From assembly GCA_001777055.1 (NCBI GenBank), contig MFCX01000036.1, positions 1 to 46,903 on the forward strand: a stretch of 46,903 nucleotides of DNA. Direction: 5' to 3'. This document shows positions 3,529 to 41,543 of this stretch, piece by piece; position 1 is the stretch's first letter; every line of letters begins with the position of its first letter. This DNA is from Candidatus Daviesbacteria bacterium RIFCSPHIGHO2_02_FULL_39_12 (GTDB lineage: Bacteria; Patescibacteriota; Microgenomatia; Daviesbacterales; UBA10151). Under the pieces are notes generated by a model. The model made no database searches. It was given only the letters and a program-made list of their open reading frames with translations, and was not told the origin of the DNA. Made by a program: the position numbers and the translations under genes.

Positions 3529-4176
3529 ATGATTAATACATCACAAAAAGTAGCCCGAATACTCCTGGAACTTAGTGCTATTAGCTTAAACCTCAAAAAA
3601 CCCTACCGTTATGTTTCCGGTATGTTTTCCCCTGTTTATACAGATTGCCGGGTACTCATGGCTTATCCTGATAAACGCAAACTAATTAGAGATCTTTATA
3701 TAAATGCAGTTAAAAAATCCGGTATTGCCTTTGATGTTGTTGCCGGCACGGCTACAGCCGGCATACCTCATGCTGCCTGGATTGCCGATAAGTTAAACCT
3801 GCCAATGGTGTATGTTCGGGATAAAGCCAAGGATCATGGTAAGGAAAACATGATGGAGGGGATAATTAAAAAAGGACAGAAAGCTGTGGTAATTGAAGAT
3901 TTGGTTTCAACCGGAGAAAGTGCTATTAACAGCGTCAATGCTATAAGAGCTGCCGGCGGACAAGTCTCTGCTGTTTTCTCCATCATCACTTACGGCTTGG
4001 CAGCAGCTGATAAAAATTTAGCTGAAAACGATCTTAAATTAGTCTCTTTGACAGATTTTAACCAGGTAGTCGCTGAAGCTCAAATTATAAACCAAATTAC
4101 CAAAGAAGAAGTGTCAGCAATTTTAGATTGGGCTAAGAATCCTCAAGCTTGGGGGAAAAATTTAGGGCTTGAATAA
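3529..4176 (+). CDS. pyrE: Orotate phosphoribosyltransferase
   Basis: YVSGMFSPVYTDCR and the PRPP-binding motif VVIEDLVSTGES. In pyr gene context. Confidence 0.85.
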   Translation: MINTSQKVARILLELSAISLNLKKPYRYVSGMFSPVYTDCRVLMAYPDKRKLIRDLYINAVKKSGIAFDVVAGTATAGIPHAAWIADKLNLPMVYVRDKAKDHGKENMMEGIIKKGQKAVVIEDLVSTGESAINSVNAIRAAGGQVSAVFSIITYGLAAADKNLAENDLKLVSLTDFNQVVAEAQIINQITKEEVSAILDWAKNPQAWGKNLGLE

Positions 4177-5237
4177 TGATCAAATTGCCTGGACTGATTG
4201 ATACTCATGTACACTTAAGAGAACCCGGTGCCGCTCAAAAAGAAGACTTTGAAACAGGCACCAAAGCAGCTATTGCCGGAGGCTACACTACTATCCTGGA
4301 CATGCCTAATAACCCGGAACCTACTGTTACGCTGAACACCTTAGAGAAGAAGATAACACTTACAAAATCCAGAATTTATTGTGATTTGGGTTTTCATTTT
4401 GGAGCCACTTTAGACTCAGTTGCTTACTTTCCAAAAGTAAAAGATAAAGTCTTCGGGCTGAAAGTTTACATGAACCATACCACAGGCGGCTTACTGCAGG
4501 AAAATCCTCAAGTTTTAAAAAAGATCTTTGAGGCCTGGCTAAACGATAGGGTAATTATGGTCCATGCCGAGGGCCCATCCTTAGAAAAAGCTATAAGTCT
4601 GTCTAAACAATTTAACAGCAAACTGCACGTTTGCCACGTCAGTTTAGCAGAGGAAATAAGATTGATAAAACAGGCTAAAGATCAAAGATTGAGTATAACT
4701 TGCGAAGTGTCCGGGCACCATCTATTTTTGACGGATGAAGATTTAGGAAGATTGGAGGGATTTGGGAAAATGAGACCTCCCCTGCCTTCAAAAAAAGATC
4801 AGAAAGCTTTATGGGAAGCAATTGCAGATGGCACAATTGATACTATAGCCTCAGATCATGCTCCTCATACAAAAGAGGAGAAAAGTAGCAATAACCCGCC
4901 AAACGGAGTTCCGGGTTTAGAAACTACCCTGCCCTTACTTTTAACAGCAGTCAGTGAGGGCAGATTAATCATAGATGACATCATCCGTCTTTGCCACACC
5001 AACCCTAAAAGGATTTTTAATATTCCGGACCAGCCGGACACTTATGTAGAAGTTGATCCAACTATACGCTATACACTATACGCTATACGCTTATACACCA
5101 AATGCTCCTGGACTCCTTTTGAAGGCATGAAAGTTATAGGAAAAATCAAACGGGTAGTTTTAAGAGGAAATTTAGTGTATGATAATGGGCAAGTTTCAGA
5201 CCCACCAAAAGGACAGGTGATCTATCCAAAGAAATGA
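4176..5237 (+). CDS. pyrC: Dihydroorotase
   Basis: DTHVHLREPG metal-binding motif, VHAEG, ASDHAPH. Start overlaps the pyrE stop. Carries an in-frame heptamer-array insert (TIRYTLYAIRLYT). Confidence 0.85.
   Translation: MIKLPGLIDTHVHLREPGAAQKEDFETGTKAAIAGGYTTILDMPNNPEPTVTLNTLEKKITLTKSRIYCDLGFHFGATLDSVAYFPKVKDKVFGLKVYMNHTTGGLLQENPQVLKKIFEAWLNDRVIMVHAEGPSLEKAISLSKQFNSKLHVCHVSLAEEIRLIKQAKDQRLSITCEVSGHHLFLTDEDLGRLEGFGKMRPPLPSKKDQKALWEAIADGTIDTIASDHAPHTKEEKSSNNPPNGVPGLETTLPLLLTAVSEGRLIIDDIIRLCHTNPKRIFNIPDQPDTYVEVDPTIRYTLYAIRLYTKCSWTPFEGMKVIGKIKRVVLRGNLVYDNGQVSDPPKGQVIYPKK
5062..5098 (+). repeat. Heptamer-periodic array (ctatacg family) inside pyrC
   Basis: ctatacg ctataca ctatacg ctatacg cttatac. 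Same unit as the array at 7493-7534. Confidence 0.85.
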
Positions 5238-20999: not shown

Positions 21000-21028
21000 A
21001 TAACGGTTATGATAATTATAACAGTTAT
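21000..21028. promoter_or_regulatory. Two tandem 11-bp palindromes (ATAAC-N-GTTAT) in the divergent gap before the GH1 gene
   Basis: ataacggttat at 21000-21010 and ataacagttat at 21018-21028, centres 18 bp apart. Confidence 0.3.
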
Positions 21029-21032
21029 ATTT

Positions 21033-22358
21033 ATGACAAGTTTACCCCCCAAACAAAAACACGACCATCACACTTTAAAATTTCCGGACAATTTTCTATG
21101 GGGAGCTGCCACCTCTGCATATCAGGTAGAAGGTAATAATAGCTATTCTGACTGGTGGGACTGGGAGGTACAGGGTAAATTACCTGCCTCAGGTATAGCT
21201 TGTGATCAATACAACCGCTTTGAGCAGGATTTTGATTTAGTCAAAAACTTAAACCATAATGCTCATAGATTATCTATCGAATGGTCCAGGATTGAGCCTA
21301 AAGATGGGGAATTTGATCATCACGAGATTGAACACTACATTAAATTACTGAAAGTTCTTAAGTCACTTAAGATAACAGTCATGCTAACTCTTTGGCATTT
21401 TACTTTACCCAAATGGGTAGCAGATATTGGCGGCTGGGAGAACGGGCAAACTGTAAAATACTTTGAGAGGTTTGTTAAAAGAATCGCCCCGGAACTTGGT
21501 GAATTCGTAGACATGTGGGTCACTTTAAACGAACCCGGGGTGTATGTTTATCAAGGCTTTGTTGAACGGGTTTGGCCGCCGGCTAAAAAAAGCTTTTTTG
21601 GCCAGGTTAAAACCATCCTTAATTTTGCTTCTGCCCACAAAAGAGTCTATAAATACTTACATAAAGCTTTTCCCAAAAAAGAGGTGGGGATAGCCAACAA
21701 TGTCCAGTCGTTTGAATCTTACCATAAACATTCTGTCGCAGAACAAGTGGCGGTTATCATTACCGACATCATCACAAATCACCTGTTTTACTTTCTGACC
21801 CGCGGCGCCCATGACTTTTTAGGTTTAAATTATTATTTCCATGTCCGCTTTAAACAGGGAGAGGGACTGATGCCGGAGGTAACTGCTGCATCCAATGAGT
21901 CCAGAGATGTATCTGATTTAGGCTGGGAAATATATCCTGAAGGACTTTTTGGAGTATTGGAAGATTTATCAGACGATTTACCGATTTATATAACCGAATG
22001 CGGCATTGCTTCTACTAATGATGATCGGAGAAACAGGTTTTTAATTACATATTTACATGAAGTCTACCGGGCAATAAAATCCGGCATTAATGTCAAGGGC
22101 TTTTTTTACTGGTCTTTGATAGATAACTATGAATGGCATAGGGGCTTTGAACCCAGATTTGGCTTGATTGAAGTGGATTATAAAACTTTGGAAAGGCGGA
22201 TCAGACCCTCGGCGCTGGTGTATACAGATATTATTCAACATAACGGGATTCCCCACTCCCTGCTTAGGTTTATTGGGCACACAGTCCAGGCAGAAGATGT
22301 TTTGGAAAAAAGATATAGAGAAATTAGTAAAGAGATCAAAGAAAGCCAAAAGAATTAA
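21033..22358 (+). CDS. Glycoside hydrolase family 1 beta-glucosidase
   Basis: FLWGAATSAYQVEG, acid/base TLNEP, nucleophile region YITECG (usually ITENG), WSLIDNYEW. An alternative ATG at 21009 is possible. Confidence 0.85.
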   Translation: MTSLPPKQKHDHHTLKFPDNFLWGAATSAYQVEGNNSYSDWWDWEVQGKLPASGIACDQYNRFEQDFDLVKNLNHNAHRLSIEWSRIEPKDGEFDHHEIEHYIKLLKVLKSLKITVMLTLWHFTLPKWVADIGGWENGQTVKYFERFVKRIAPELGEFVDMWVTLNEPGVYVYQGFVERVWPPAKKSFFGQVKTILNFASAHKRVYKYLHKAFPKKEVGIANNVQSFESYHKHSVAEQVAVIITDIITNHLFYFLTRGAHDFLGLNYYFHVRFKQGEGLMPEVTAASNESRDVSDLGWEIYPEGLFGVLEDLSDDLPIYITECGIASTNDDRRNRFLITYLHEVYRAIKSGINVKGFFYWSLIDNYEWHRGFEPRFGLIEVDYKTLERRIRPSALVYTDIIQHNGIPHSLLRFIGHTVQAEDVLEKRYREISKEIKESQKN

Positions 22359-27606: not shown

Positions 27607-28497
27607 ATGGGTAAAACAAAGACTAAATTAATAGATGATTCAAAGTCAAAGGCTGAAGTCAAAGGTCAAACTTCCCTTCGGGGGCCCGAAGTCAAAAGTG
27701 TAGAAAACAAAAAAGCATCCAGACCTAAAGATGAGCTGGTGGAAAAACTGAAAGCTGAGCTGGGGATAGAAGAAACTTCCTCTCACCCTTCGACTGACGC
27801 TCAGGGTCCTCGCAATGACAAAAAAGGGCCGGTGCAAAAATCAAAGCCCCGTTCTAAAAAATATCAGGAACTAGTCAAAGATTTAGACAAATCCAAGACA
27901 TATCCTTTAAATGAGGCTGTAGAAACTGCTAAAAAGCTCTCTTACACTAAATTTACAGGCACGCTTGAAGCTCATATTAATACTTATAATACAGGCATCA
28001 GAGGCTTAGTCTCGTTTCCTTTCGCTTTAGGCAAAAAATTACACATCCTGGTTTTTGGAGCCAACACCTCGAAGGAGTCAGAACTCACCTTTAAGGTGAA
28101 TGGTGTTACTCTTGGCGATGATGCTGCCATTGAAGAAATTAACAAAGGCAAAATTAATTTTGATTTAGTAATCACTACACCTGAATGGATGCCAAAGCTT
28201 GCTAAAGTTGCAAAGAATTTAGGCCCAAGGGGTTTAATGCCCAACCCAAAAAGCGGGACAATTACAACAGACCTCAAAAAAGCTGTAGAAAGCTTTCAGG
28301 CAGGTAAGACAGAATATAAAACAGAACCAAAGGCAAAAGTTATGCACTTAGCCTTAGGCAAGTTAGATCAGTCAACAGAAGAATTATCAGCCAATATAAA
28401 AGCCTTGCTACAGGTACTTGGTAAAACCCGGGTCAAAAAAATAACTCTCTCCCCAACCATGGGCCCCGGAGTTAAAGTAGATTTAGCCAGTATATAG
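27607..28497 (+). CDS. rplA: Ribosomal protein L1 with ~80-aa N-terminal low-complexity extension
   Basis: Conserved part from KKYQELVK..: FDLVITTPEWMPKLAKVAKNLGPRGLMPNPKSGT, GKTEYKTE. The extension is built from repeat words and a CGTCATTGCGAG-family element. Confidence 0.9.
   Translation: MGKTKTKLIDDSKSKAEVKGQTSLRGPEVKSVENKKASRPKDELVEKLKAELGIEETSSHPSTDAQGPRNDKKGPVQKSKPRSKKYQELVKDLDKSKTYPLNEAVETAKKLSYTKFTGTLEAHINTYNTGIRGLVSFPFALGKKLHILVFGANTSKESELTFKVNGVTLGDDAAIEEINKGKINFDLVITTPEWMPKLAKVAKNLGPRGLMPNPKSGTITTDLKKAVESFQAGKTEYKTEPKAKVMHLALGKLDQSTEELSANIKALLQVLGKTRVKKITLSPTMGPGVKVDLASI
28180..28244 (+). repeat. Left copy of a 65-nt near-identical direct repeat (inside rplA)
   Basis: cctgaatggatgccaaagcttgctaaagttgcaaagaatttaggcccaag (50/50 identical to 31829-31878), one mismatch, then ggtttaatgcccaa (14/14). 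Confidence 0.85.
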
Positions 28498-28505
28498 TTA
28501 CCTAA

Positions 28506-28535
28506 TTGACAGCTCGACTAAACTAGTGGTACATT
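28506..28535 (+). promoter_or_regulatory. Extended -10 promoter of the inserted operon
   Basis: TTGACA (28506-28511), 18 nt, TGg-TACATT (28527-28535). The ATG at 28550 follows after ~14 nt. Confidence 0.5.
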
Positions 28536-28549
28536 ATTTTTTTTCCAAG

Positions 28550-30808
28550 ATGGGCAGAGAGCAAGATACTTTGGTATCAGGTTCGATTATTAATTTACCT
28601 CCTTTAGTCGATCTTCATGATCCCCGTTTACCCGGAGCCTTTAAGGGTTGGACAGATTTTAGTTTGAATCACGCCCGACAACTTAGCGGAATAGGTATAA
28701 TGAAACCAAGGCAAGTTGTTGACCTGGCACAAGAATTTTCAGGTACGATTAGTAAAGCAATTGGGGTTGGAATCGAGAGGAGTGGTCTTGCTTCTATCAG
28801 CGAAGATAAGTTGGTACAATTAACAAACATCGTTTCAGGCACGGGAAACAGGGTTATTTTTATGCGGCATGGCGAACAAAGCCCTCCCGAGTGGATATCC
28901 TCTTTAGCAAATCCGGCTTTACAAAAAATACGGATGATGAGGGATCTTTTTAACAGGCAGGATTTTTTGACAAATAACGGTTTAATAGATGTATTTGTTA
29001 CAGCCTTAGCTTTGCTGCATGTTCAAACCTCGACAGGTAAGAGAACTCGGATTTATTCTTCTGAAAACATAAGAGCAAAAAAAACAGCATATATAATTTC
29101 TACAGTTATTTCTGGTTCCACTGTATCAACTCTGGAAGGGTTAAATTGTGTCACCTATAAGGATGAAGTTGATCAGCCTCCTGTGACTGAAGAAGACTTA
29201 TTGACTGATTTACCTTTAGGTACGATGCCATGGAGTCCCCAGTTGGTGGATAAATTATGTAAAAGACCAAAAAGCGGCATGAGCCAGTCAGAAGCAATAA
29301 TCAATACAATTGGCGGGTTAGTTGAGTACGCGGATAGAAAAAATGGTAATAAATTAGCGATAGTGGTGACACACAACCAACAGGTTGCAGAGGTTTTAAG
29401 AGAAGCTGGGAAACTGGAAGACTCTGCCGTGCGTTTTCCCGAGCTGACAATGCTTATTGCACAAAATAAGAATGATCTTTTTGTTTTGGAAAAAGGCGTT
29501 TTATCTGAAAGGTCGAGCCGTCAACCTAAAACAGAAAGGAGCATGAGGAAGGTATTGGAGGTCTTCGGAGATGGTTATGAGTGGTATAAGATACGGCGAG
29601 CAGAATATCAGACAGAACAAAAGATTCCTTTCCGGGTATCTCCTTTTCCTCTGGATCTATCCCCTCAAGAAACCCAGGAATTATTGAGGATAGGTAGGGA
29701 TATTGTGGAATTTATAGATGCAGCAGATGAATTATACAGAACAGATGGTGATTTAAAGAAATTGCTTGATAGAGGAAAACCCGATTTGCTTAAGACAGGA
29801 AGATTGGCACATTACCTTTTTGTCAGACCGGATGTAATTATTACTCAAGAAGGGTTCTCTGTTTGCGAGATTGAAACGTCTCCATTTGGATTGGCTTTGG
29901 CAGAATTATTAAACAGGGCATACAGGTTTGCCGGTTTTGAGACTTTAATACCAGATGATATGTTAACAAAATTTATGAGAGAACATACTCCAGATAGAGG
30001 AAACTTAGTTTATAGTCAACATACTGCTTCTTATTCCGGACAACTACAGTTTCTGGCAGATAAAGTACTTTCTGGTAATGACAGGAGATGGAGTGTTGAG
30101 CAAGCTGGTTCTGTTTTGGATATGACTTCTCCTGCATTATACAGAGCGTTTTACCAGCATGAATGTTTAGATGATCCTGCTGTTGATAATATTATGCAAT
30201 TCTATGCCGGAAGGCAAACCCCAGAAGTTATTCCGTCATTCACGCCTCACATGGAAGAGAAGGCACTACTAGCCTTAATTTGGGATAAAAGATGGGAAGA
30301 ATTTTTTGTAAAGCAATTAGGAATTTCCTCTGTTGAGCATTTGAGAAAAGTGATACCTCCGACTTGGATTGTAGGACAAGAGCGGTTTTTCCTTCCTGGT
30401 TTACCAGATGGGGTTGAGTCAACCGAGGGATTGGCTTTGCTCTTTAAATCAAAGCGTAATTTTGTTTTGAAACAATCAGGTTTCGGCAGCGGTGGTTCTT
30501 GGGCAGAAGGAGTAAGTTTTCTGCAGGAGAAATCTGTCGTCAAGGCACAGGAACTCCTACATAATGCTGTAGAAGATTCATCCTCTTTGTATGTAATCCA
30601 GGAATTTAGGAAAGCAGAGGAACGAAGGATGTTTGATGAAGGAGATGGTTCTCTGTTAACAGAAATGTCTGCTAGGATTAGGCTTACTCCTTATTTTTCA
30701 ATGGTAGAAAGGAATTATGGACAATTGATAGCAATTAAAGCTACCGGTTGCGAAAAGACAAATTATATCCATGCATCTACTGGAAGTATAAATACGGCAG
30801 TTGCCTAA
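28550..30808 (+). CDS. Fusion protein: histidine-phosphatase (PGAM-like) N-domain plus ATP-grasp-like ligase C-domain
   Basis: N-half: VIFMRHGEQS (RHG motif), SSENIRAKKTA, AIVVTHNQQV (second His). C-half: HYLFVRPDVIITQEGFSVCEIETSPFG, FVLKQSGFGSGGSW, YVIQEF, resembling eukaryotic-type GSH synthetase or circularly permuted ATP-grasp folds. The GTG at 28526 lies inside the promoter, so ATG 28550 is preferred. Confidence 0.6.
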   Translation: MGREQDTLVSGSIINLPPLVDLHDPRLPGAFKGWTDFSLNHARQLSGIGIMKPRQVVDLAQEFSGTISKAIGVGIERSGLASISEDKLVQLTNIVSGTGNRVIFMRHGEQSPPEWISSLANPALQKIRMMRDLFNRQDFLTNNGLIDVFVTALALLHVQTSTGKRTRIYSSENIRAKKTAYIISTVISGSTVSTLEGLNCVTYKDEVDQPPVTEEDLLTDLPLGTMPWSPQLVDKLCKRPKSGMSQSEAIINTIGGLVEYADRKNGNKLAIVVTHNQQVAEVLREAGKLEDSAVRFPELTMLIAQNKNDLFVLEKGVLSERSSRQPKTERSMRKVLEVFGDGYEWYKIRRAEYQTEQKIPFRVSPFPLDLSPQETQELLRIGRDIVEFIDAADELYRTDGDLKKLLDRGKPDLLKTGRLAHYLFVRPDVIITQEGFSVCEIETSPFGLALAELLNRAYRFAGFETLIPDDMLTKFMREHTPDRGNLVYSQHTASYSGQLQFLADKVLSGNDRRWSVEQAGSVLDMTSPALYRAFYQHECLDDPAVDNIMQFYAGRQTPEVIPSFTPHMEEKALLALIWDKRWEEFFVKQLGISSVEHLRKVIPPTWIVGQERFFLPGLPDGVESTEGLALLFKSKRNFVLKQSGFGSGGSWAEGVSFLQEKSVVKAQELLHNAVEDSSSLYVIQEFRKAEERRMFDEGDGSLLTEMSARIRLTPYFSMVERNYGQLIAIKATGCEKTNYIHASTGSINTAVA

Positions 30809-30810
30809 CT

Positions 30811-31260
30811 ATGTTTGACACAATAATTTTTGACTGGAAAAGGACTTTGTATGATCCCGACCGACAGGTTTTGATTGGTGGTGCAATGGAGCTTTTGGAT
30901 TTAATAAAAAGTAAAAATCTTCTCATGGTTTTAATTGGTAAAGGTGGGGAGGATATGAAGCAGGAGGTGAAACGCTTGAAGATAAGTAAGTATTTCACAC
31001 ATATTGTGTTTGCAGAAGGTGAAAAAGATCCTCAGGTATTTCTGCCTTATATATCAAAAAATAATCCTAAAGAAACTATTTTTATTGGAGATAGAATTAG
31101 GTCAGAATTAGCAATTGGAAAAAACTTAGGTGCAACTACTATCTGGATCAAACAAGGCAAATTTGCTGTAGAAGAACCGGAAAATAACGATCAGGAACCT
31201 GATTATATTGTTTCATCCCTAAAAGATTGCTTAAAGTTAATTTCAGGGTTAGTGGTATAG
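30811..31260 (+). CDS. HAD-superfamily hydrolase-like protein with atypical motif I
   Basis: MFDTIIFDWKRTLYD (D-x-K-x-T instead of D-x-D-x-T), motif IV FIGDRIRSEL. The ATG is 2 nt after the upstream stop. Confidence 0.65.
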   Translation: MFDTIIFDWKRTLYDPDRQVLIGGAMELLDLIKSKNLLMVLIGKGGEDMKQEVKRLKISKYFTHIVFAEGEKDPQVFLPYISKNNPKETIFIGDRIRSELAIGKNLGATTIWIKQGKFAVEEPENNDQEPDYIVSSLKDCLKLISGLVV

Positions 31261-31457
31261 GCATAAACATGAGGAGAATTTATAAATAATAAAGTAAGGA
31301 TTAAGGAAAAAATTAATACAATTGTTATCCCATACTTGATAGGGAATCCATAAATATGCAATAATTTTTTAGCCTCCGTGATACAGATTATTTTGTGGTA
31401 TATTGATAACAATTCTGTGTGAGGCGATATAGATAGTTTGCTGTCTACCGTAACACT

Positions 31458-31483
31458 AAAACCATCCGTAAGGGTGGTTTTTT
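31458..31483 (+). terminator. Intrinsic terminator downstream of the inserted operon
   Basis: aaaccatcc-gtaa-gggtggttt followed by a T run (31478-31483). One G-U pair in the stem. Confidence 0.65.
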
Positions 31484-31545
31484 GGTGGAATTCCAGGCTG
31501 CTATTTACTAGAGAATCGTATATACTGCCAAATACCTGTATTCCC

Positions 31546-31759
31546 CTAATCTCCCTTCCTTACCTTACGCCACACCTGGCCCAGGTCAAACTTCAGTAAA
31601 TATAGCGAGGTTATACCAAAGACCAACAAGCAAACAGTAGTTATAATATGCATCAAGACTGTTGCAGCTGAAGCCAGGTTTGACTCCAAACCCAATACTC
31701 CTCCAAAAACCGCCAACCCCGAAACCTCGGCAGAGCCCACATAACCCGGAGCAGATATT
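31546..31759 (-). pseudogene. 3' fragment of a UPF0104/LPG-synthase-TM-like membrane protein gene
   Basis: ISAPGYVGSAEVSGLAVFGGVLGLESNLASAATVLMHIITTVCLLVFGITSLYLLKF..* resembles the C-terminus of flippase-like UPF0104 proteins. The 5' part is missing and the fragment abuts the rplA fragment at ~31760. Confidence 0.4.
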
Positions 31760-32146
31760 GTGGGAGATGAAAGCGTCATTGAATCCATCAACAAAGGAAA
31801 AGTTGATTTTGATTTAGTCATAACTACCCCTGAATGGATGCCAAAGCTTGCTAAAGTTGCAAAGAATTTAGGCCCAAGAGGTTTAATGCCCAATCCCAAA
31901 AACGGCACTATTACTGATGCTTTGAAAAAGACTGTCGAATCGTTCCAAGCCGGCAAAACTGAGTACAAAACTGAGTCTAAAGCTGCGGTTATTCATATTG
32001 GACTGGGTAAATTAAACCAACCTACGGAGCAGTTAGCAGCTAATGTCAAAACCTTACTCGCAACCATCGGTAAAACAAAAATTAAAAAAGTAACCCTGTC
32101 TCCCACCATGGGCCCGGGCGTGAAGGTGGATCTCTCCGGACTTTAA
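31760..32146 (+). pseudogene. Orphan second copy of the rplA 3' part (L1 C-terminal 128 aa)
   Basis: GDESVIESINKGKVDFDLVITTPEWMPKLAKVAKNLGPRGLMPNPKNGT..TLSPTMGPGVKVDLSGL aligns end-to-end with residues ~169-296 of the L1 at 27607-28497. No L1 N-terminal half precedes it. Confidence 0.8.
31829..31893 (+). repeat. Right copy of the 65-nt near-identical direct repeat
   Basis: Matches 28180-28244 at 64/65 positions. Confidence 0.85.
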
Positions 32147-38346: not shown

Positions 38347-40932
38347 TTATGGCGCACCGCTGCTTGGGGCAAAGTTCACTGCCCCGCCGTTATATAAATC
38401 TTTTACTTGGGTGACAGTTAAGGCATAATTATAAATCCTGACATCATCAATCTGGCCATTAAAATAACTGGTTGAAGTATATGAGCGGGTGCCAAGGGTA
38501 ATATTAGAGGTAGTGGCCATGGCATCGGTGCCCATAGCTGCAGTTGAACCATCAGCTTTGCCGTCAATATATATTTGTCCGTTGCCATCCCTGTCAATAG
38601 TACAGCCTATTAAATGCCAGTTGGTATCAGCAATAGTAGAAGTTGAGGTGACATCGGTTGCATCCTCGGAGCATTGGACAGTGTTAGAGCCGGTAAAAAG
38701 CAATCTATAGCCGTCATTATCCGCGTCCTCTTTACTTAGGATATATTCTGCGCCGGTGGTTGTTCTTTTGACCCAGGCAAAAAGAGAAAAATCATCAGTG
38801 GAGTTATTAAAGCGCAGGTTGGCAGTATCAGCAACAGCTACTTTATCATCAGTCCCGTCTAGACTTAAAGAATAATTTCTCTTGCCTGTTGCACCGCTGC
38901 CCCAGGCGGTGGAAGAAGTTGAGCAGGTGCCCACAGTATCTTCTCCTCCTGTTGCTCCAATAGTAATAGTACCGGTATTTCCGTTACCCGAAGAGTCATT
39001 GGCAGTTGTTCCCTGACATTCATCCATCTTCCAATACCCAACCGGCGCCCCCCTGTTATAATCCCAAGCAATCTGGGCAGCACTCCGGGCATAATTAAAA
39101 ATTCTAACTTGATCAATTTGCCCATTAAAATACTTCCAGGCACCAGAAACACCAGTTCTCCCAATTTCAAATGAAGCATTACTGAAAGTAGTACCACCAT
39201 AATTACCACTGGCTACCTGTACTCCATTCACATAAAGAATTGTGTTGCCACTGGAGTCATAAGTATAGGTTATATGTTTCCAGGTATTCTGCCAATTAGT
39301 AGGAGTCGTATACTCTAAGCCAGCATATCCACCTCTAGAAAATCTTAACTTACCTTGATAAAAGAAGTGTTGAAGAGCACTGGCAGTAGTGTCGGTGGAT
39401 GAATAAAAAAGCCCTCTTGTCGTGGAAGAAGTTGTATCAAAATTTGGATTCATCCAATAGGATAAAGTACCTCCGGTAGTCACGAGAATAGCAGAAGTTT
39501 TCTCAGCGTAATCATCCGTTCCATTAAAATTACCCGCCTTACCAACCTTTCCAGATTTATATCTAGGAAATCCAGTTCCATACCAAGTGCCATTATATGC
39601 ATTGCCAGAGGTATCCAAAACATTATTTTCAAAATCCCATCTGGCTACCGGGGCAGTACAGGAAGTGGTATCTCCTGGAATACAATATTCCTGGTTAGCA
39701 GCTTGAGGTTGATAAGAGGAGTTATCAGAAAGTGAGCCTAAAACTTGGGAAGAACCTCTATTATAATCCACCTTTACCTCATCAGCAGTTAAAGCATACC
39801 TGTAAACTTTTATCTCATCCAAATCTCCATTAAACTCATCTCCGTTATCTACTCCATCTCTGTCTCCAGCATAAATGGATAAAGAATTAGCCAGAGTTGC
39901 AGTCGTGGTATCTGTATCAGAATCTTTTAATACTCCATCTATATAAATATATGTTTTATCTTGGGTTACATCTCTAACTGCCGCTACATGATGCCAGGTA
40001 TTATCATAAACATCTGTAGATGTGCAGGAGGCGATATCTGGTCCCCAGGTTGTATCATCATCTATGCCAAAACATAAATAACCTGAAGTATTGGTATAGA
40101 TAGCATAACCTGCGGTGGTGGCATTGGCTTTATTAAATAAATACTCTGCAGCTCCTGGATTATTGGCAGAGTCTGATTTAAACCATAAAGATATAGAGTA
40201 ATCATCTGTGTCAGTAACATCAAAATCAGAATCATCTGCTTTGGACAACCATATAGCTCCTGTACCATTCCAGGCTTTACCAAACTTGCCGCTGTCTGTC
40301 CATGACGTAGAAGAAAGGGTCAAATTATTCGCATTAGGGGTACTATCATTAGCAGTAGTCCCATATCCTTCATCAAAGTCCCAATAGCCTACAGCCGACC
40401 CAACAGGAGAGCCAACAGCGGGGTGGCCTGCGTTCATGTCTTGCACAATTTGCTTTTGAGTGCGGGCATAGTTATATACCTGAAACTGGTCTACCGTGCC
40501 TATAAAATTAGTATAAAGGGCATCTGCAGAATCATCTTCACCCACCAAAAAGTTATTGGCAGTATCATCAACTGCTACTGTTAGGGACTGTGAACCAACC
40601 TGCACCCCGTTAACATAAATCCTTAAATTTACTTTATCATATGTGCAGGAAATATGGCTCCAAGTGTTTAGAGTGAGGGCGCTTGTGCCGGAAGCAGCAG
40701 TCTGCCAGGTGGTACTTTTGATCTGGCAGCCCGGAAGACCTGAGGCATCGGTAAAAAGCCTGACCTCCTCTGCTTTGCCCACCAAGGCCTTGCTTGTTAC
40801 AGAAGTTTGCGGATTGAAATATAAAGATATTGTAAATTGGTTAGCGGTCTCTCCTGCTTTAGCAGGAGAGGGAAACACTAGACTCATGAGAGTCATGAGT
40901 CCCATTAGACATATGAGATTTATGTATCTCAT
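38347..40932 (-). CDS. Large secreted protein with four LamG/concanavalin-A-like lectin domains
   Basis: Signal peptide. Recurrent domain ends GTVDQFQVYNYARTQKQI, GDLDEIKVYRYALTADEV, GQIDQVRIFNYARSAAQI, GQIDDVRIYNYALTVTQV. Confidence 0.8.
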   Translation of the reverse strand: MRYINLICLMGLMTLMSLVFPSPAKAGETANQFTISLYFNPQTSVTSKALVGKAEEVRLFTDASGLPGCQIKSTTWQTAASGTSALTLNTWSHISCTYDKVNLRIYVNGVQVGSQSLTVAVDDTANNFLVGEDDSADALYTNFIGTVDQFQVYNYARTQKQIVQDMNAGHPAVGSPVGSAVGYWDFDEGYGTTANDSTPNANNLTLSSTSWTDSGKFGKAWNGTGAIWLSKADDSDFDVTDTDDYSISLWFKSDSANNPGAAEYLFNKANATTAGYAIYTNTSGYLCFGIDDDTTWGPDIASCTSTDVYDNTWHHVAAVRDVTQDKTYIYIDGVLKDSDTDTTTATLANSLSIYAGDRDGVDNGDEFNGDLDEIKVYRYALTADEVKVDYNRGSSQVLGSLSDNSSYQPQAANQEYCIPGDTTSCTAPVARWDFENNVLDTSGNAYNGTWYGTGFPRYKSGKVGKAGNFNGTDDYAEKTSAILVTTGGTLSYWMNPNFDTTSSTTRGLFYSSTDTTASALQHFFYQGKLRFSRGGYAGLEYTTPTNWQNTWKHITYTYDSSGNTILYVNGVQVASGNYGGTTFSNASFEIGRTGVSGAWKYFNGQIDQVRIFNYARSAAQIAWDYNRGAPVGYWKMDECQGTTANDSSGNGNTGTITIGATGGEDTVGTCSTSSTAWGSGATGKRNYSLSLDGTDDKVAVADTANLRFNNSTDDFSLFAWVKRTTTGAEYILSKEDADNDGYRLLFTGSNTVQCSEDATDVTSTSTIADTNWHLIGCTIDRDGNGQIYIDGKADGSTAAMGTDAMATTSNITLGTRSYTSTSYFNGQIDDVRIYNYALTVTQVKDLYNGGAVNFAPSSGAP
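40879..40932. repeat. Nonamer-periodic array (catgag family) encoding the signal peptide of the LamG protein
   Basis: gactcatga gagtcatga gtcccatta gacatatga gatttatgt atctcat. Translated on the minus strand as MRYINLICLMGLMTLMSL. Confidence 0.7.
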
Positions 40933-41543
40933 TTATTTTTAAACTCCCTTCTTTTCTGAAAAAGATTTTCCCTAAAACCGCCTTTCTGGATAAAGCTTTT
41001 CTCAATTCCTTTTAAAAATCTGTCTAATAAAAACCCTTCCTTGGTGCAAAGGGTAATCATTAAATTAGCAAAAGCTTCTGGATCAGAAAATTTTATTCCA
41101 TGAGACTCATTAGACTCATGAGTCACATGAGGCTCATGGGGATTTATTAGTATGGAGCGCAGGTGTAAAACCCGCGGGTCGTTTTTATCCCAAAGCTTGA
41201 GTCCTTTATTAAATAGAAAGTCCTGGTAGTCTTCTATTAGTTCTCCGTAACTTGCTCTTGATACACCAGTTAGCTTCAGGTTGCTTTCTACAGAATTTTC
41301 CAAAGAACCTTCAACCAAGTCCTGTTTGCCTGAACGGGCTGCCTGTTCCATTTGGTCAAGGGTTCGGGAAAATTTAGAGATGTAAAGCTTTAAAAAAATA
41401 CTGTTAAGGTTGTAGATCTCTACTGCAAGCCAATAAACCAGAGTATTTTTAATTCCTCCTAGGCTTTTTCCATGAGACTCATTGGTCTCATGTGACTTAT
41501 TTGACTCATGTATTTTATCTTGACTCATATTATTAAAAATCAC
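40929..41543 (-). CDS. Four-helix-bundle protein (23S rRNA IVS / Avd-like) with suffix domain
   Basis: LDQMEQAARSGKQDLVEGS, C-terminal KGGFRENLFQKR. ATGA overlap with the downstream LamG gene and 11-nt overlap with the upstream one. Confidence 0.7.
   Translation of the reverse strand: MIFNNMSQDKIHESNKSHETNESHGKSLGGIKNTLVYWLAVEIYNLNSIFLKLYISKFSRTLDQMEQAARSGKQDLVEGSLENSVESNLKLTGVSRASYGELIEDYQDFLFNKGLKLWDKNDPRVLHLRSILINPHEPHVTHESNESHGIKFSDPEAFANLMITLCTKEGFLLDRFLKGIEKSFIQKGGFRENLFQKRREFKNK
41098..41141. repeat. Nonamer-periodic array (catgag family)
   Basis: ccatgagactcattagactcatgagtcacatgaggctcatgggg, translated as HEPHVTHESNESHG. Confidence 0.7.
41470..41529. repeat. Nonamer-periodic array (catgag family) at the four-helix-bundle gene 5' end
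   Basis: catgagact cattggtct catgtgact tatttgact catgtattt.., translated as HESNKSHETNESHG. Confidence 0.7.

What the first reader, a model, noticed from the sequence alone, without database searches (positions are those of the whole stretch)
28506..31260. Cargo operon: histidine-phosphatase/ATP-grasp fusion protein plus a HAD-like protein with D-x-K motif I
The 752-aa protein joins a PGAM-type histidine phosphatase half (RHGE, ..VVTHNQQ) to a C-terminal half with ATP-grasp ligase hallmarks (RPDVIITQEGFSVCEIETSPFG, VLKQSGFGSGGSW, YVIQEF), reminiscent of eukaryotic-type glutathione synthetase or circularly permuted ATP-grasp enzymes. I do not recognise this fusion as a described architecture. 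The next gene starts 2 nt after its stop and encodes a HAD-fold protein whose second catalytic Asp is replaced by Lys (FDWKRT). A ligase plus two phosphatase-type modules on a mobile-looking insert suggests a self-contained small-molecule or peptide modification module: metabolite repair, nucleotide- or peptide-derived signal, or a conflict system. The function is open.
Basis: partly seen in the sequence, partly recalled or inferred. Interest (0 to 1): 0.7.

Follow-up and report, generated by a model that had tools for sequence, protein, structure and literature searches.

The report
Phosphatase–ligase fusion enzyme cassette, function unknown
A Daviesbacteria (candidate phyla radiation) genome carries a compact two-gene cassette, a histidine phosphatase fused to a glutathione-synthetase-like ATP-grasp ligase plus an atypical cap-less HAD protein; the enzyme set is conserved across Patescibacteria, has no database family or published function, and probably ligates and then dephosphorylates a small metabolite.

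Summary
Window 28550-30808 encodes a 752-aa protein and 30811-31260 a 149-aa HAD-fold protein that starts 2 nt after its stop.

Structure prediction plus fold search shows three things:
- Residues ~100-318 are a branch-1 histidine phosphatase with the R-H-R-H set intact.
- Residues 332-752 are a glutathione-synthetase/GspS-type ATP-grasp (pLDDT 92, Foldseek E 1e-12). No Pfam or NCBIfam model recognises this half.
- The HAD protein is a cap-less HAD-IA core. It keeps the Asp nucleophile, but Asp+2 is Lys and the motif II Ser/Thr is Gly.

The ligase family has about 900 clusters at 50% identity, nearly all Patescibacteria. In 76 non-redundant loci:
- 41 have this HAD directly downstream.
- 30 have a histidine phosphatase: 12 fused, 16 as a separate ~180-aa gene, 2 as a standalone N-half.
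- 17 have neither.

The phosphatase half is also found fused to a rifampin-phosphotransferase/PEP-synthase-like enzyme.

Other recurrent neighbours are aspartate carbamoyltransferase, dihydroorotase, GTP cyclohydrolase II, riboflavin and lumazine synthase, AsnB and CysRS.

The 2.7-kb cassette sits at different loci in close relatives. Here it is flanked by a duplicated rplA 3' fragment.

Best reading: a ligate-then-dephosphorylate small-molecule pathway with an unknown substrate. There is no sign of a defence system. It is a new variant of a known kind.

The parts
28500..28549 (+). Upstream edge of the cassette, with a promoter-like site (TTGACA 28506, 18-nt spacer, TACATT to 28535). There is no obvious Shine-Dalgarno sequence.
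   Evidence: promoter-like scan; the number of such sites in the region is not above the shuffled expectation; nucleotide homology to relatives L011 and L001 starts at 28500 and 28525; sequence.
28550..28846 (+). N-terminal ~100-aa helical extension of the fusion protein (aa 1-99). No known domain. It is conserved in all N-half homologues.
   Evidence: alignments; model: helices 27-95; residues 1-16 disordered.
28847..29503 (+). Histidine phosphatase domain, branch 1 (aa ~100-318). It carries RHG (R106, H107), SSENxRA (R175) and THxQQ (H275).
   Evidence: His_Phos_1 at E 0.11, below threshold; model plus Foldseek: RosC, Rv2419c, PGAM5, dPGM at E 1e-6 to 1e-4; invariant residues; PMC12051542 for the R/H/R/H signature.
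29543..30808 (+). ATP-grasp ligase domain of the glutathione-synthetase/GspS (permuted) type (aa 332-752, plus stop). It also occurs widely as a stand-alone ~420-aa protein.
   Evidence: stand-alone homologue aligns to aa 332-752; pLDDT 91.9; Foldseek hits to GSS, Cp1B, YgiC and GspS; invariant residues; 904 family clusters.
30811..31260 (+). Cap-less HAD-fold protein ('HAD-DWK'), probably translationally coupled (2-nt gap). Motif I is D8-W-K10-R-T12, motif II Ser/Thr is replaced by Gly43 followed by invariant K44, motif III is K72, and motif IV is G93-D94...E99.
   Evidence: Hydrolase_like 1e-10, HAD_2 5e-6; alignments; closest solved relative PH1655/2hoq, with the cap region missing; directly downstream of the ligase in 41 of 76 clusters.
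31458..31484 (.). Hairpin (AAAACCAUCC-GUAA-GGGUGGUUUU) flanked by an A-run and a U-run. It looks like a bidirectional terminator, lying between the cassette and the gene-fragment scar.
   Evidence: sequence; -17.6 kcal/mol, z -2.8. It was not reported by the simple terminator scan.
28107..28497 (+). The 3' end of the intact rplA gene (27607-28497). It is copy A of a diverged direct repeat.
   Evidence: repeats D1/D2, spacing 3649 nt, 73-75% nucleotide identity; Ribosomal_L1; 75% amino-acid identity between the copies.
31546..31758 (-). C-terminal remnant of an LPG_synthase_TM-type membrane-protein gene. It abuts the rplA fragment.
   Evidence: PF03706, profile positions 257-302 of 302, E 0.0015, below threshold; no L1 homology upstream of 31756.
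31756..32146 (+). Orphan rplA 3' fragment (128 codons, open frame). It is copy B of the repeat. Together with copy A it brackets a 3649-bp block that contains the cassette.
   Evidence: (Ribosomal_L1 1e-27, profile positions 69-198); present in independent assemblies.

Best explanation
This is a self-contained two-gene metabolic cassette of a Candidatus Daviesbacteria (Patescibacteria) genome. It most likely carries out consecutive 'ligate, then dephosphorylate' steps on a phosphate-bearing small metabolite.

Shown:
- Gene 1 fuses a branch-1 histidine phosphatase fold, with its catalytic Arg-His-Arg-His set intact, to a glutathione-synthetase-type ATP-grasp fold.
- Gene 2 is a cap-less HAD-fold protein that keeps the Asp nucleophile and the Mg2+ site but lacks the Asp+2 general acid/base and the motif II Ser/Thr.
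- Across Patescibacteria the ligase is followed by this HAD, or by a canonical ~180-aa histidine phosphatase, or is fused to the N-half.
- The cassette moves as a unit between genomic sites.

Inferred:
- The ATP-grasp half activates a carboxylate as an acyl phosphate and joins it to an amine.
- The substrate or product carries a phosphate that the phosphatase module(s) remove. This releases the product and makes the route irreversible, as in other biosynthetic 'X-phosphate then phosphatase' pathways.
- Because HAD-DWK lacks the general acid, it may prefer a good leaving group (acyl-phosphate, P-N or anhydride) over a simple ester.

More speculative: recurrent neighbours suggest the substrate is aspartate-derived, or a ribose-5-phosphate-linked aminopyrimidine or nucleotide-type intermediate. 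These neighbours are aspartate carbamoyltransferase with dihydroorotase-like or cytosine-deaminase-like amidohydrolases, GTP cyclohydrolase II, lumazine and riboflavin synthase, AsnB, PRPP synthetase and a PfkB kinase.
For: - Folds: C half, pLDDT 91.9; GSS, Cp1B, YgiC and GspS at E 1e-12 to 1e-7; N half, histidine phosphatases.
- Catalytic residues: invariant.
- HAD anatomy.
- Functional coupling: three architectures exist (fusion, stand-alone ligase, stand-alone N-half).
- Census of 76 non-redundant ligase loci: HAD-DWK at +1 in 41; a histidine phosphatase in 30 (12 fused, 16 separate, 2 stand-alone N-half); both in 11; neither in 17. Every fusion locus with downstream sequence has HAD-DWK at +1.
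- HAD-DWK and the 180-aa phosphatase occupy the same +1 slot in different lineages. This mirrors the documented HAD versus histidine-phosphatase alternation for the riboflavin ARAPDP phosphatase (PMC12051542).
- Neighbours: ATCase in 6 clusters from very different lineages, and also next to a stand-alone N-half. GTP cyclohydrolase II sits at -1 with 14-nt and 2-nt gaps. RibE and RibH are present in L026. AsnB appears.
Against: - No substrate is identified.
- The neighbour signals are each present in under 10% of loci and point to more than one pathway (pyrimidine, riboflavin, CysRS).
- No riboswitch was found in 21 loci.
- Similarity of the C half to GSS is structural only. HMMER against PDB and hhalign against four GSS sequences were not significant, so equivalence of the catalytic residues is not proven.
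- HAD-DWK lacks two canonical catalytic residues and could be inactive or do something other than hydrolyse a phosphate.
- 17 of 76 ligase loci have no phosphatase gene nearby.
Confidence: 0.42

Rival explanations
1. Opposed activities in one polypeptide. The ATP-grasp half phosphorylates (or ligates) a metabolite and the fused histidine phosphatase reverses or limits the reaction. The protein would then set the level of a phosphorylated or signalling metabolite, as PPIP5K/Vip1, PFK-2/FBPase-2 or GspS synthetase/amidase do.
For: - The same N half (78% identical) is fused in related Daviesbacteria to a rifampin-phosphotransferase/PEP-synthase-like ATP-grasp plus swivel-His phosphotransferase in place of the C half. 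Its partner is therefore always an ATP-dependent phosphoryl-transfer enzyme.
- The domain order (N-terminal hydrolase, C-terminal GSS-like ATP-grasp) is that of GspS, which is among the fold hits.
- PPIP5K is a known ATP-grasp plus histidine-phosphatase fusion (PMC11836120).
Against: - The solved relatives of this ATP-grasp type that came up are ligases, not kinases.
- Most ligases are not fused, and they pair with a phosphatase-like gene in a simple operon, which looks like a pathway rather than a switch.
- No sensor or regulatory domain is present.
- A second phosphatase-type gene is kept even in the fusions.
Confidence: 0.2
2. Protein- or peptide-modifying module. The ligase adds an amino acid or amine to a carboxylate of a protein, in the manner of RimK or TTL. 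The cap-less HAD and the histidine phosphatase act on a phosphoprotein.
For: - Cap-less (C0) HADs typically take macromolecular substrates (established knowledge of the HAD superfamily). HAD-DWK lacks the cap.
- The histidine phosphatase family includes protein phosphatases such as PGAM5 and Sts, which are among the fold hits, and SixA (weak hit).
- In the window the cassette follows rplK-rplA. In L008 it lies near rpsF-ssb-rpsR.
Against: - No conserved small ORF or target protein accompanies the cassette.
- Adjacency to rplA is unique to this organism.
- The closest folds act on small molecules.
Confidence: 0.1
3. A glutathione-like low-molecular-weight thiol or peptide synthetase of Patescibacteria.
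For: The best fold matches are glutathione and homoglutathione synthetases. A cysteinyl-tRNA synthetase gene lies next to the cassette in 5 of 76 clusters, in three different arrangements.
Against: - No gamma-glutamylcysteine ligase or other thiol-pathway gene was seen nearby.
- There is no sequence-level similarity to GSS.
- The neighbouring CysRS looks like the housekeeping enzyme: full length with DALR_2.
- The phosphatase partners are left unexplained.
Confidence: 0.06
4. Cargo of a mobile element with a conflict or defence role.
For: The cassette sits at different loci in genomes with ~85% identical copies. In the window it is bracketed by a duplicated rplA 3' end and a membrane-gene remnant.
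Against: - No PADLOC hit for the fusion, the HAD or the dikinase variant.
- No integrase, transposase or inverted repeats were seen at the ends.
- Neighbours in other genomes are metabolic or housekeeping genes, not defence islands.
Confidence: 0.03

Closest known systems
Eukaryotic-type glutathione / homoglutathione synthetase (e.g. 2hgs, 3kal, 1m0w) and the fungal E-64 ligase Cp1B (9cjn)
   Same: The C half has the same overall fold (Foldseek E 1e-12, TM 0.55-0.69, with Cp1B the best TM). Motifs lie in the same order: E-I-E-T-S-P-F-G against E-I-N-T-I-S-A-S-F-G-G, Y-R-G-F-Y against F-R-D-G-Y, V-L-K-x-S-G against V-L-K-P-Q-R-E-G-G-G, and Y-V-I-Q-E-F against Y-I-L-M-E-K-I. These come from a low-confidence alignment. 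Cp1B was likewise reported to have no detectable sequence identity to characterised ATP-grasp enzymes despite the fold (PMC12568646).
   Different: There is no significant sequence similarity. The family is bacterial (Patescibacteria). It is fused or paired with phosphatases. No equivalent of the GSS Mg ligand E368 appears in the alignment. The substrate is unknown.
Glutathionylspermidine synthetase/amidase (GspSA, 2io8) and YgiC/YjfC
   Same: The ATP-grasp is of the GSS-like type. GspSA also has an N-terminal hydrolase fused to the C-terminal ligase.
   Different: The hydrolase here is a histidine phosphatase, not a CHAP amidase, so it cannot simply reverse an amide ligation.
PPIP5K/Vip1 (ATP-grasp kinase plus histidine acid phosphatase) and PFK-2/FBPase-2
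   Same: One polypeptide combines an ATP-dependent phosphoryl-transfer domain with a histidine-phosphatase-superfamily domain (PMC11836120; PFK-2/FBPase-2 from general knowledge).
   Different: The domain order is reversed. The phosphatase is branch 1 rather than branch 2 (versus PPIP5K). The ATP-grasp is GSS-type rather than RimK or inositol-kinase type. The protein is bacterial, and a third HAD-type partner is present.
HAD-IA hydrolases of the PH1655/CTE7 (TIGR02253) and YjjG type
   Same: HAD-DWK aligns to the core domain and to motifs I, III and IV.
   Different: The whole C1 cap is missing. Asp+2 is Lys (Asn or Leu in some members). The motif II Ser/Thr is Gly, followed by an invariant Lys.
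ARAPDP (riboflavin pathway) phosphatases: HAD enzymes (YigB and others) or the histidine family phosphatase HFP (9mmh)
   Same: The same two superfamilies alternate for one dephosphorylation step (PMC12051542). HFP and RosC are among the fold hits of the N half. GTP cyclohydrolII or RibE/RibH lie next to the ligase in 6 clusters.
   Different: No ligase is known in riboflavin synthesis. Most cassettes have no rib gene nearby. No FMN riboswitch was found.

Membership tests
ATP-grasp superfamily, glutathione-synthetase/GspS (permuted) type | Three-dimensional fold matching GSS/GspS-type enzymes | tested here: met
   AlphaFold model pLDDT 91.9, pTM 0.92. Foldseek against PDB gave 44 hits at E<=1e-3, all of them GSS, hGS, Cp1B, YgiC/YjfC or GspS, with probability 1.00 and TM 0.5-0.69.
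ATP-grasp superfamily, glutathione-synthetase/GspS (permuted) type | Match to a curated sequence profile (Pfam GSH_synth_ATP, GSP_synth, CP_ATPgrasp_1/2; NCBIfam) | tested here: not met
   The C half has no Pfam or NCBIfam hit at E<=1. Distant homologues reach only sub-threshold CP_ATPgrasp_2 (E 0.19 and 0.009). The profile against PDB sequences found nothing relevant.
ATP-grasp superfamily, glutathione-synthetase/GspS (permuted) type | Conserved Mg2+/ATP-binding residues (acidic E-x-E/N pair, ATP-binding lysines, Gly-rich loop) | tested here: inconclusive
   E109, E111, K240, K310, Q353 and K399 are invariant or nearly so in 55 sequences. They fall opposite GSS E144/N146, K305, K364 and M398-E399 in an hhalign alignment, but that alignment is not significant (probability <1%).
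ATP-grasp superfamily, glutathione-synthetase/GspS (permuted) type | ATP-dependent carboxylate-amine ligation via an acyl phosphate | not testable with these tools
   Requires an enzyme assay.
Histidine phosphatase superfamily, branch 1 (PGAM-like) | Catalytic Arg-His (RHG), second Arg and second His | tested here: met
   R106-H107-G, R175 (in SSENxRA) and H275 (in THxQQ) are invariant in 23 and 7 sequences. The signature is as listed for HFP (R8, H9, R58, H149) in PMC12051542.
Histidine phosphatase superfamily, branch 1 (PGAM-like) | Pfam His_Phos_1 at gathering threshold | tested here: not met
   12.6 bits against a cut-off of 21.7, E 0.11.
Histidine phosphatase superfamily, branch 1 (PGAM-like) | Fold | tested here: met
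   Model pLDDT 85.6. 125 PDB hits at E<=1e-3, with the 50 best-scoring hits listed all branch-1 members, target-normalised TM 0.43-0.63.
HAD superfamily phosphatases | Profile match and core motifs I (nucleophile Asp, Thr), III (Lys) and IV (GDxxxxE/D) | tested here: met
   Hydrolase_like 41.9 bits (cut-off 22) and HAD_2 27.1 bits (cut-off 23.8). D8, T12, K72 and G93-D94...E99 are conserved in 25 sequences.
HAD superfamily phosphatases | Asp+2 general acid/base in motif I (DxD) | tested here: not met
   The residue is Lys in 22 of 25 members, Asn in 2 and Leu in 1.
HAD superfamily phosphatases | Motif II Ser/Thr, and a cap domain | tested here: not met
   Gly43 aligns with the motif II Thr of PH1655. 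The region equivalent to the PH1655 cap (residues ~18-96) is absent.
Mobile genetic element / integrative island | Recombinase or transposase gene and defined terminal repeats | tested here: not met
   None was seen among the ORFs in the 26-36 kb stretch around the cassette. The rest of the window was not fully annotated. The only flanking repeat is the 73-75% identical rplA 3' duplication.
Mobile genetic element / integrative island | Variable genomic location among close relatives | tested here: met
   84-85% nucleotide identity to L011 and L001 is confined to 28500-31235, and the flanks are unrelated.
Known anti-phage defence systems | Match to a PADLOC model | tested here: not met
   No hit for the fusion, the HAD or P0032.

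The most novel reading that the evidence does not exclude
The ligase, histidine phosphatase and DxK-HAD trio is a Patescibacteria-specific route to an as yet unknown amide-linked metabolite built on a phosphorylated pyrimidine or nucleotide-type (or aspartate-derived) intermediate. One example would be a non-canonical branch or bypass in pyrimidine or riboflavin-type cofactor synthesis. In this reading the DxK HAD acts on a high-energy phosphate (acyl-phosphate or P-N) rather than a phosphoester. That would be a new reaction set and would fill a metabolic gap in these reduced genomes.
Probability: 0.15. Interest if true: 0.75.

Novelty: new variant of a known kind. Interest (0 to 1): 0.52.

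Why it matters
Patescibacteria are among the most abundant and least understood bacteria, and their small genomes are thought to lack most biosynthesis. This work defines an enzyme set with about 900 sequence clusters that no family database recognises. Gene fusion, translational coupling and positional replacement tie its three components together. Its gene neighbours point toward nucleotide and cofactor metabolism.

If the substrate were found, three things would follow:
- A pathway would be added to CPR metabolism.
- The known chemistry of glutathione-synthetase-type ATP-grasp ligases would be extended.
- The role of a HAD fold that lacks its general acid would be explained.

The finding also gives a clear case of a small metabolic cassette relocating between CPR genomes without any visible mobility gene.

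Tried and rejected
- Sequence-only assignment of the C half failed. Pfam and NCBIfam gave nothing. A 55-sequence profile against PDB sequences gave only a chance hit. hhalign against human GSS alone, and against four GSS sequences, gave probability <1%. The fold assignment therefore rests on AlphaFold plus Foldseek.
- Riboswitch search as a ligand clue: Rfam at gathering threshold over 21 loci (286 kb) found only tRNA and tmRNA genes.
- Defence role: PADLOC was negative.
- The 'giant' 7465-aa homologue P0159 was rejected as architectural evidence. Its sequence looks like several proteins read through, with a repeated LGCFLPGLIFLPL junction.
- The idea that the ligase replaces dihydroorotase was dropped, because a dihydroorotase-like gene sits in the same operon in L055.
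- A link to ribosomal proteins was rejected. rplA adjacency exists only in this organism.
- Literature searches for the fusion, for GSS-like enzymes in Saccharibacteria and for ATP-grasp plus ATCase plus HAD neighbourhoods found nothing relevant.
- The Hainich Patescibacteria HGT paper mentions riboflavin genes among transferred genes, but not this cassette.
- Which rplA 3' copy is native could not be decided, because no relative's rplA was available.


Full report
**What is there**

The window comes from a Candidatus Daviesbacteria (Microgenomates, Patescibacteria) genome. The HAD protein is identical to an NCBI entry from Daviesbacteria bacterium RIFCSPHIGHO2_02_FULL_39.

The local gene order, is:
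- PBP1, an ASCH protein (minus strand), secE, nusG, rplK
- rplA (27607-28497)
- the 752-aa gene (28550-30808)
- the 149-aa gene (30811-31260)
- a ~500-bp scar region
- an orphan rplA 3' fragment (31756-32146)
- the atp operon, on the minus strand

The stated start, 28506, is a promoter-like hexamer rather than a start codon.

**The N half**

Pfam sees His_Phos_1 only at E 0.11. An alignment of 23 homologues shows these invariant residues:
- R106 and H107 (RHG)
- R128, N135 and D138
- S171-E-N-x-R175-A
- E206
- T274-H275-x-Q-Q

The AlphaFold model has pLDDT 85.6. It matches only branch-1 histidine phosphatases, including RosC, glucosyl-3-phosphoglycerate phosphatase, PGAM5, the riboflavin-pathway phosphatase HFP and dPGMs, at E 1e-6 to 1e-4. 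The R/H/R/H signature given for this superfamily in PMC12051542 is complete. The first ~100 residues form an extra helical segment with no match.

**The C half**

No Pfam, NCBIfam or PDB-sequence hit was found. The model is very confident (pLDDT 91.9, pTM 0.92). All 44 significant Foldseek hits are glutathione or homoglutathione synthetases, the fungal E-64 ligase Cp1B (best TM, 0.69), YgiC/YjfC, or glutathionylspermidine synthetase.

The link is structural only: hhalign against GSS sequences is not significant, although the conserved motifs line up in the same order.

**The HAD protein**

It passes the Pfam thresholds for Hydrolase_like and HAD_2. In 25 family members the following are conserved:
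- D8, T12 and K44
- G93-D94 and E99
- K72 (nearly invariant)

The Asp+2 position is Lys in 22 members, Asn in 2 and Leu in 1.

Against its closest solved relative, PH1655 (2hoq), three differences stand out:
- The whole cap is missing.
- The motif II Thr is Gly.
- An invariant Lys follows that Gly.

The family has at least 484 clusters at 90% identity. All listed members are about 150 aa long and none is fused to another domain.

**Family and architectures**

The fusion has 82 word-indexed homologues, all from Patescibacteria. They fall into three architectures:
- Fusions of ~750 aa.
- Stand-alone ligases of ~420 aa, which align to residues 332-752.
- Proteins of ~1170 aa, in which the same N half (78% identical) is fused to a PPDK_N plus PEP-utilizers enzyme of the rifampin-phosphotransferase/PEP-synthase/PigC type.

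The N half also exists alone, at 320-335 aa. An exhaustive profile search finds 904 ligase clusters at 50% identity.

**Neighbourhood census**

I pooled 113 ligase loci from GTDB genomes, metagenomes and contig look-ups. They collapse to 76 clusters at 90% identity.

| Partner next to the ligase | Clusters (of 76) |
|---|---|
| HAD-DWK directly downstream, same strand | 41 |
| Any histidine phosphatase | 30 |
| of which a canonical ~180-aa His_Phos_1, usually in the same +1 slot | 16 |
| of which fused | 12 |
| of which a stand-alone N-half | 2 |
| Both HAD-DWK and a histidine phosphatase | 11 |
| Neither | 17 |

Every fusion locus with downstream sequence has the HAD at +1. The remaining flanks differ completely between genomes.

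In the dikinase variant (L006) the operon continues with a split AsnB, a His_Phos_1 gene and HAD-DWK.

Fusion, tight coupling and positional replacement together show that the ligase and the phosphatase-type proteins work in one process.

**Other recurrent neighbours**

- Aspartate carbamoyltransferase (above the NCBIfam equivalog cut-off) is next to the ligase in 6 clusters. These span Kaiserbacteria, Saccharimonas, other Saccharibacteria, Peribacteria and marine lineages. It is accompanied once by a dihydroorotase-like gene and once by a cytosine-deaminase-like amidohydrolase plus AsnB.
- An ATCase and a His_Phos_1 gene also lie beside a stand-alone N-half, whose gene overlaps an M20 deacylase gene.
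- A GTP cyclohydrolase II-like gene sits immediately upstream in 5 clusters, with gaps of 14 nt and 2 nt, and a PfkB kinase gene lies on the opposite strand.
- Riboflavin synthase and lumazine synthase follow the ligase in L026.
- CysRS is adjacent in 5 clusters.
- No riboswitch was found.

Each signal is a minority one. Together they lean toward aspartate, pyrimidine-ring and nucleotide-cofactor metabolism. In that area, 5'-phosphorylated amine intermediates and HAD or histidine phosphatases are already known to meet (PMC12051542).

**Mechanism**

I commit to a 'ligate, then dephosphorylate' small-molecule pathway, at confidence about 0.4. The steps are:
1. The ATP-grasp half makes an acyl phosphate and forms an amide.
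2. The histidine phosphatase and/or HAD-DWK remove a phosphate from the substrate or product.

Only the folds, the conserved residues and the genomic coupling are shown. The chemistry and the substrate class are inferred.

The main rival, at about 0.2, is an opposed synthetase (or kinase) and phosphatase pair, as in PPIP5K or GspS. The N half's alternative fusion to a phosphotransferase supports it. The other readings are less likely:
- Protein modification: about 0.1.
- A glutathione-like thiol synthetase: about 0.06.
- A defence role: about 0.03, with PADLOC negative.

**Mobility**

Nucleotide homology to the two closest relatives (84-85% identity) covers only 28500-31235. That stretch is the promoter-like site plus the two genes, and the cassette lies in unrelated contexts in those genomes.

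In the window a 3649-bp block (28107-31755) is bracketed by two rplA 3' ends that are 73-75% identical in nucleotides and 75% in amino acids. The block ends in a C-terminal remnant of an LPG_synthase_TM gene. The arrangement recurs in independent assemblies.

The pattern fits acquisition by recombination with foreign DNA that carried its own rplA 3' end. No recombinase or terminal inverted repeats are visible, and which copy is native remains unknown.

**Verdict**

- The fusion is not a described architecture. It is the fused form of a widespread, uncharacterised Patescibacteria enzyme set.
- Novelty: a new variant of a known kind.
- Interest: moderate.

Noticed in passing
window 28107-28497 and 31756-32146; 31546-31758 (minus strand): The 3' third of rplA is present twice (73-75% nucleotide identity, 75% amino-acid identity). 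The second copy is an orphan 128-codon open frame that abuts a C-terminal remnant of an LPG_synthase_TM-type gene on the other strand. The 3649-bp block between the copies contains the cassette. It looks like a recombination or HGT scar without any mobility gene.
   Followed up: partly
window 27607-27930: Ribosomal protein L1 is 296 aa long. The Pfam L1 domain covers only residues 110-287, so the protein has a ~109-aa Lys/Glu/Ser-rich N-terminal extension.
   Followed up: no
L006 8001-14382 (Daviesbacteria JACQIW010000012): The same phosphatase N half (78% identical) is fused to a rifampin-phosphotransferase/PEP-synthase/PigC-like ATP-grasp plus swivel-His enzyme. It is followed by a split AsnB (GATase and Asn_synthase as separate ORFs), a canonical His_Phos_1 gene and a HAD-DWK gene. 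This is a domain-swapped variant of the cassette.
   Followed up: partly
L066 5257-10179: A stand-alone N-half gene overlaps the start of an M20 (ArgE/DapE-type) deacylase gene. A CbiA-like ATPase gene follows, with ATCase, His_Phos_1 and YdjC genes on the opposite strand. Here the phosphatase half is paired with an amide hydrolase instead of an amide ligase.
   Followed up: partly
L044 3334-3792 (minus strand); L051 2397-2855: A second small (~150 aa) HAD-like family with motif I D-x-N-G-T lies next to the ligase in two distant loci.
   Followed up: no
L040 7001-8234; L047 4932-6241: The ligase gene is split into two ORFs in two related loci. This could be a frameshift, a pseudogene or a sequencing error.
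   Followed up: no
P0159 (7465 aa; ligase domain at 1399-1835): This 'giant protein' appears to be several proteins read through, with a recurring LGCFLPGLIFLPL junction motif. It is probably a gene-calling artefact from a contig that uses an alternative genetic code.
   Followed up: partly
window 38347-46842 (minus strand): A run of large proteins carries multiple Laminin_G_3/ConA-like lectin domains, DUF2341, and a Peptidase_S74 (endosialidase chaperone) plus SH3_3 protein. These are likely surface, adhesion or tail-fibre-like proteins.
   Followed up: no
window 11781-13877; 21009-22358; 4176-5237: A PrkA-type AAA serine kinase homologue, a GH1 glycosidase, and an amidohydrolase with weak similarity (E 3e-15) to the dihydroorotase-like neighbour seen in L055.
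   Followed up: no
GTDB loci L020, L024, L025, L031, L033, L036-L039 and others: Many contigs that carry Patescibacteria-type cassettes are titled 'uncultured Clostridia', 'Gammaproteobacteria' or 'Rhabdochlamydiaceae'. L049 and L050 (labelled Peribacteraceae and Rhabdochlamydiaceae) show identical gene coordinates. This suggests mislabelled or mis-binned MAGs.
   Followed up: no
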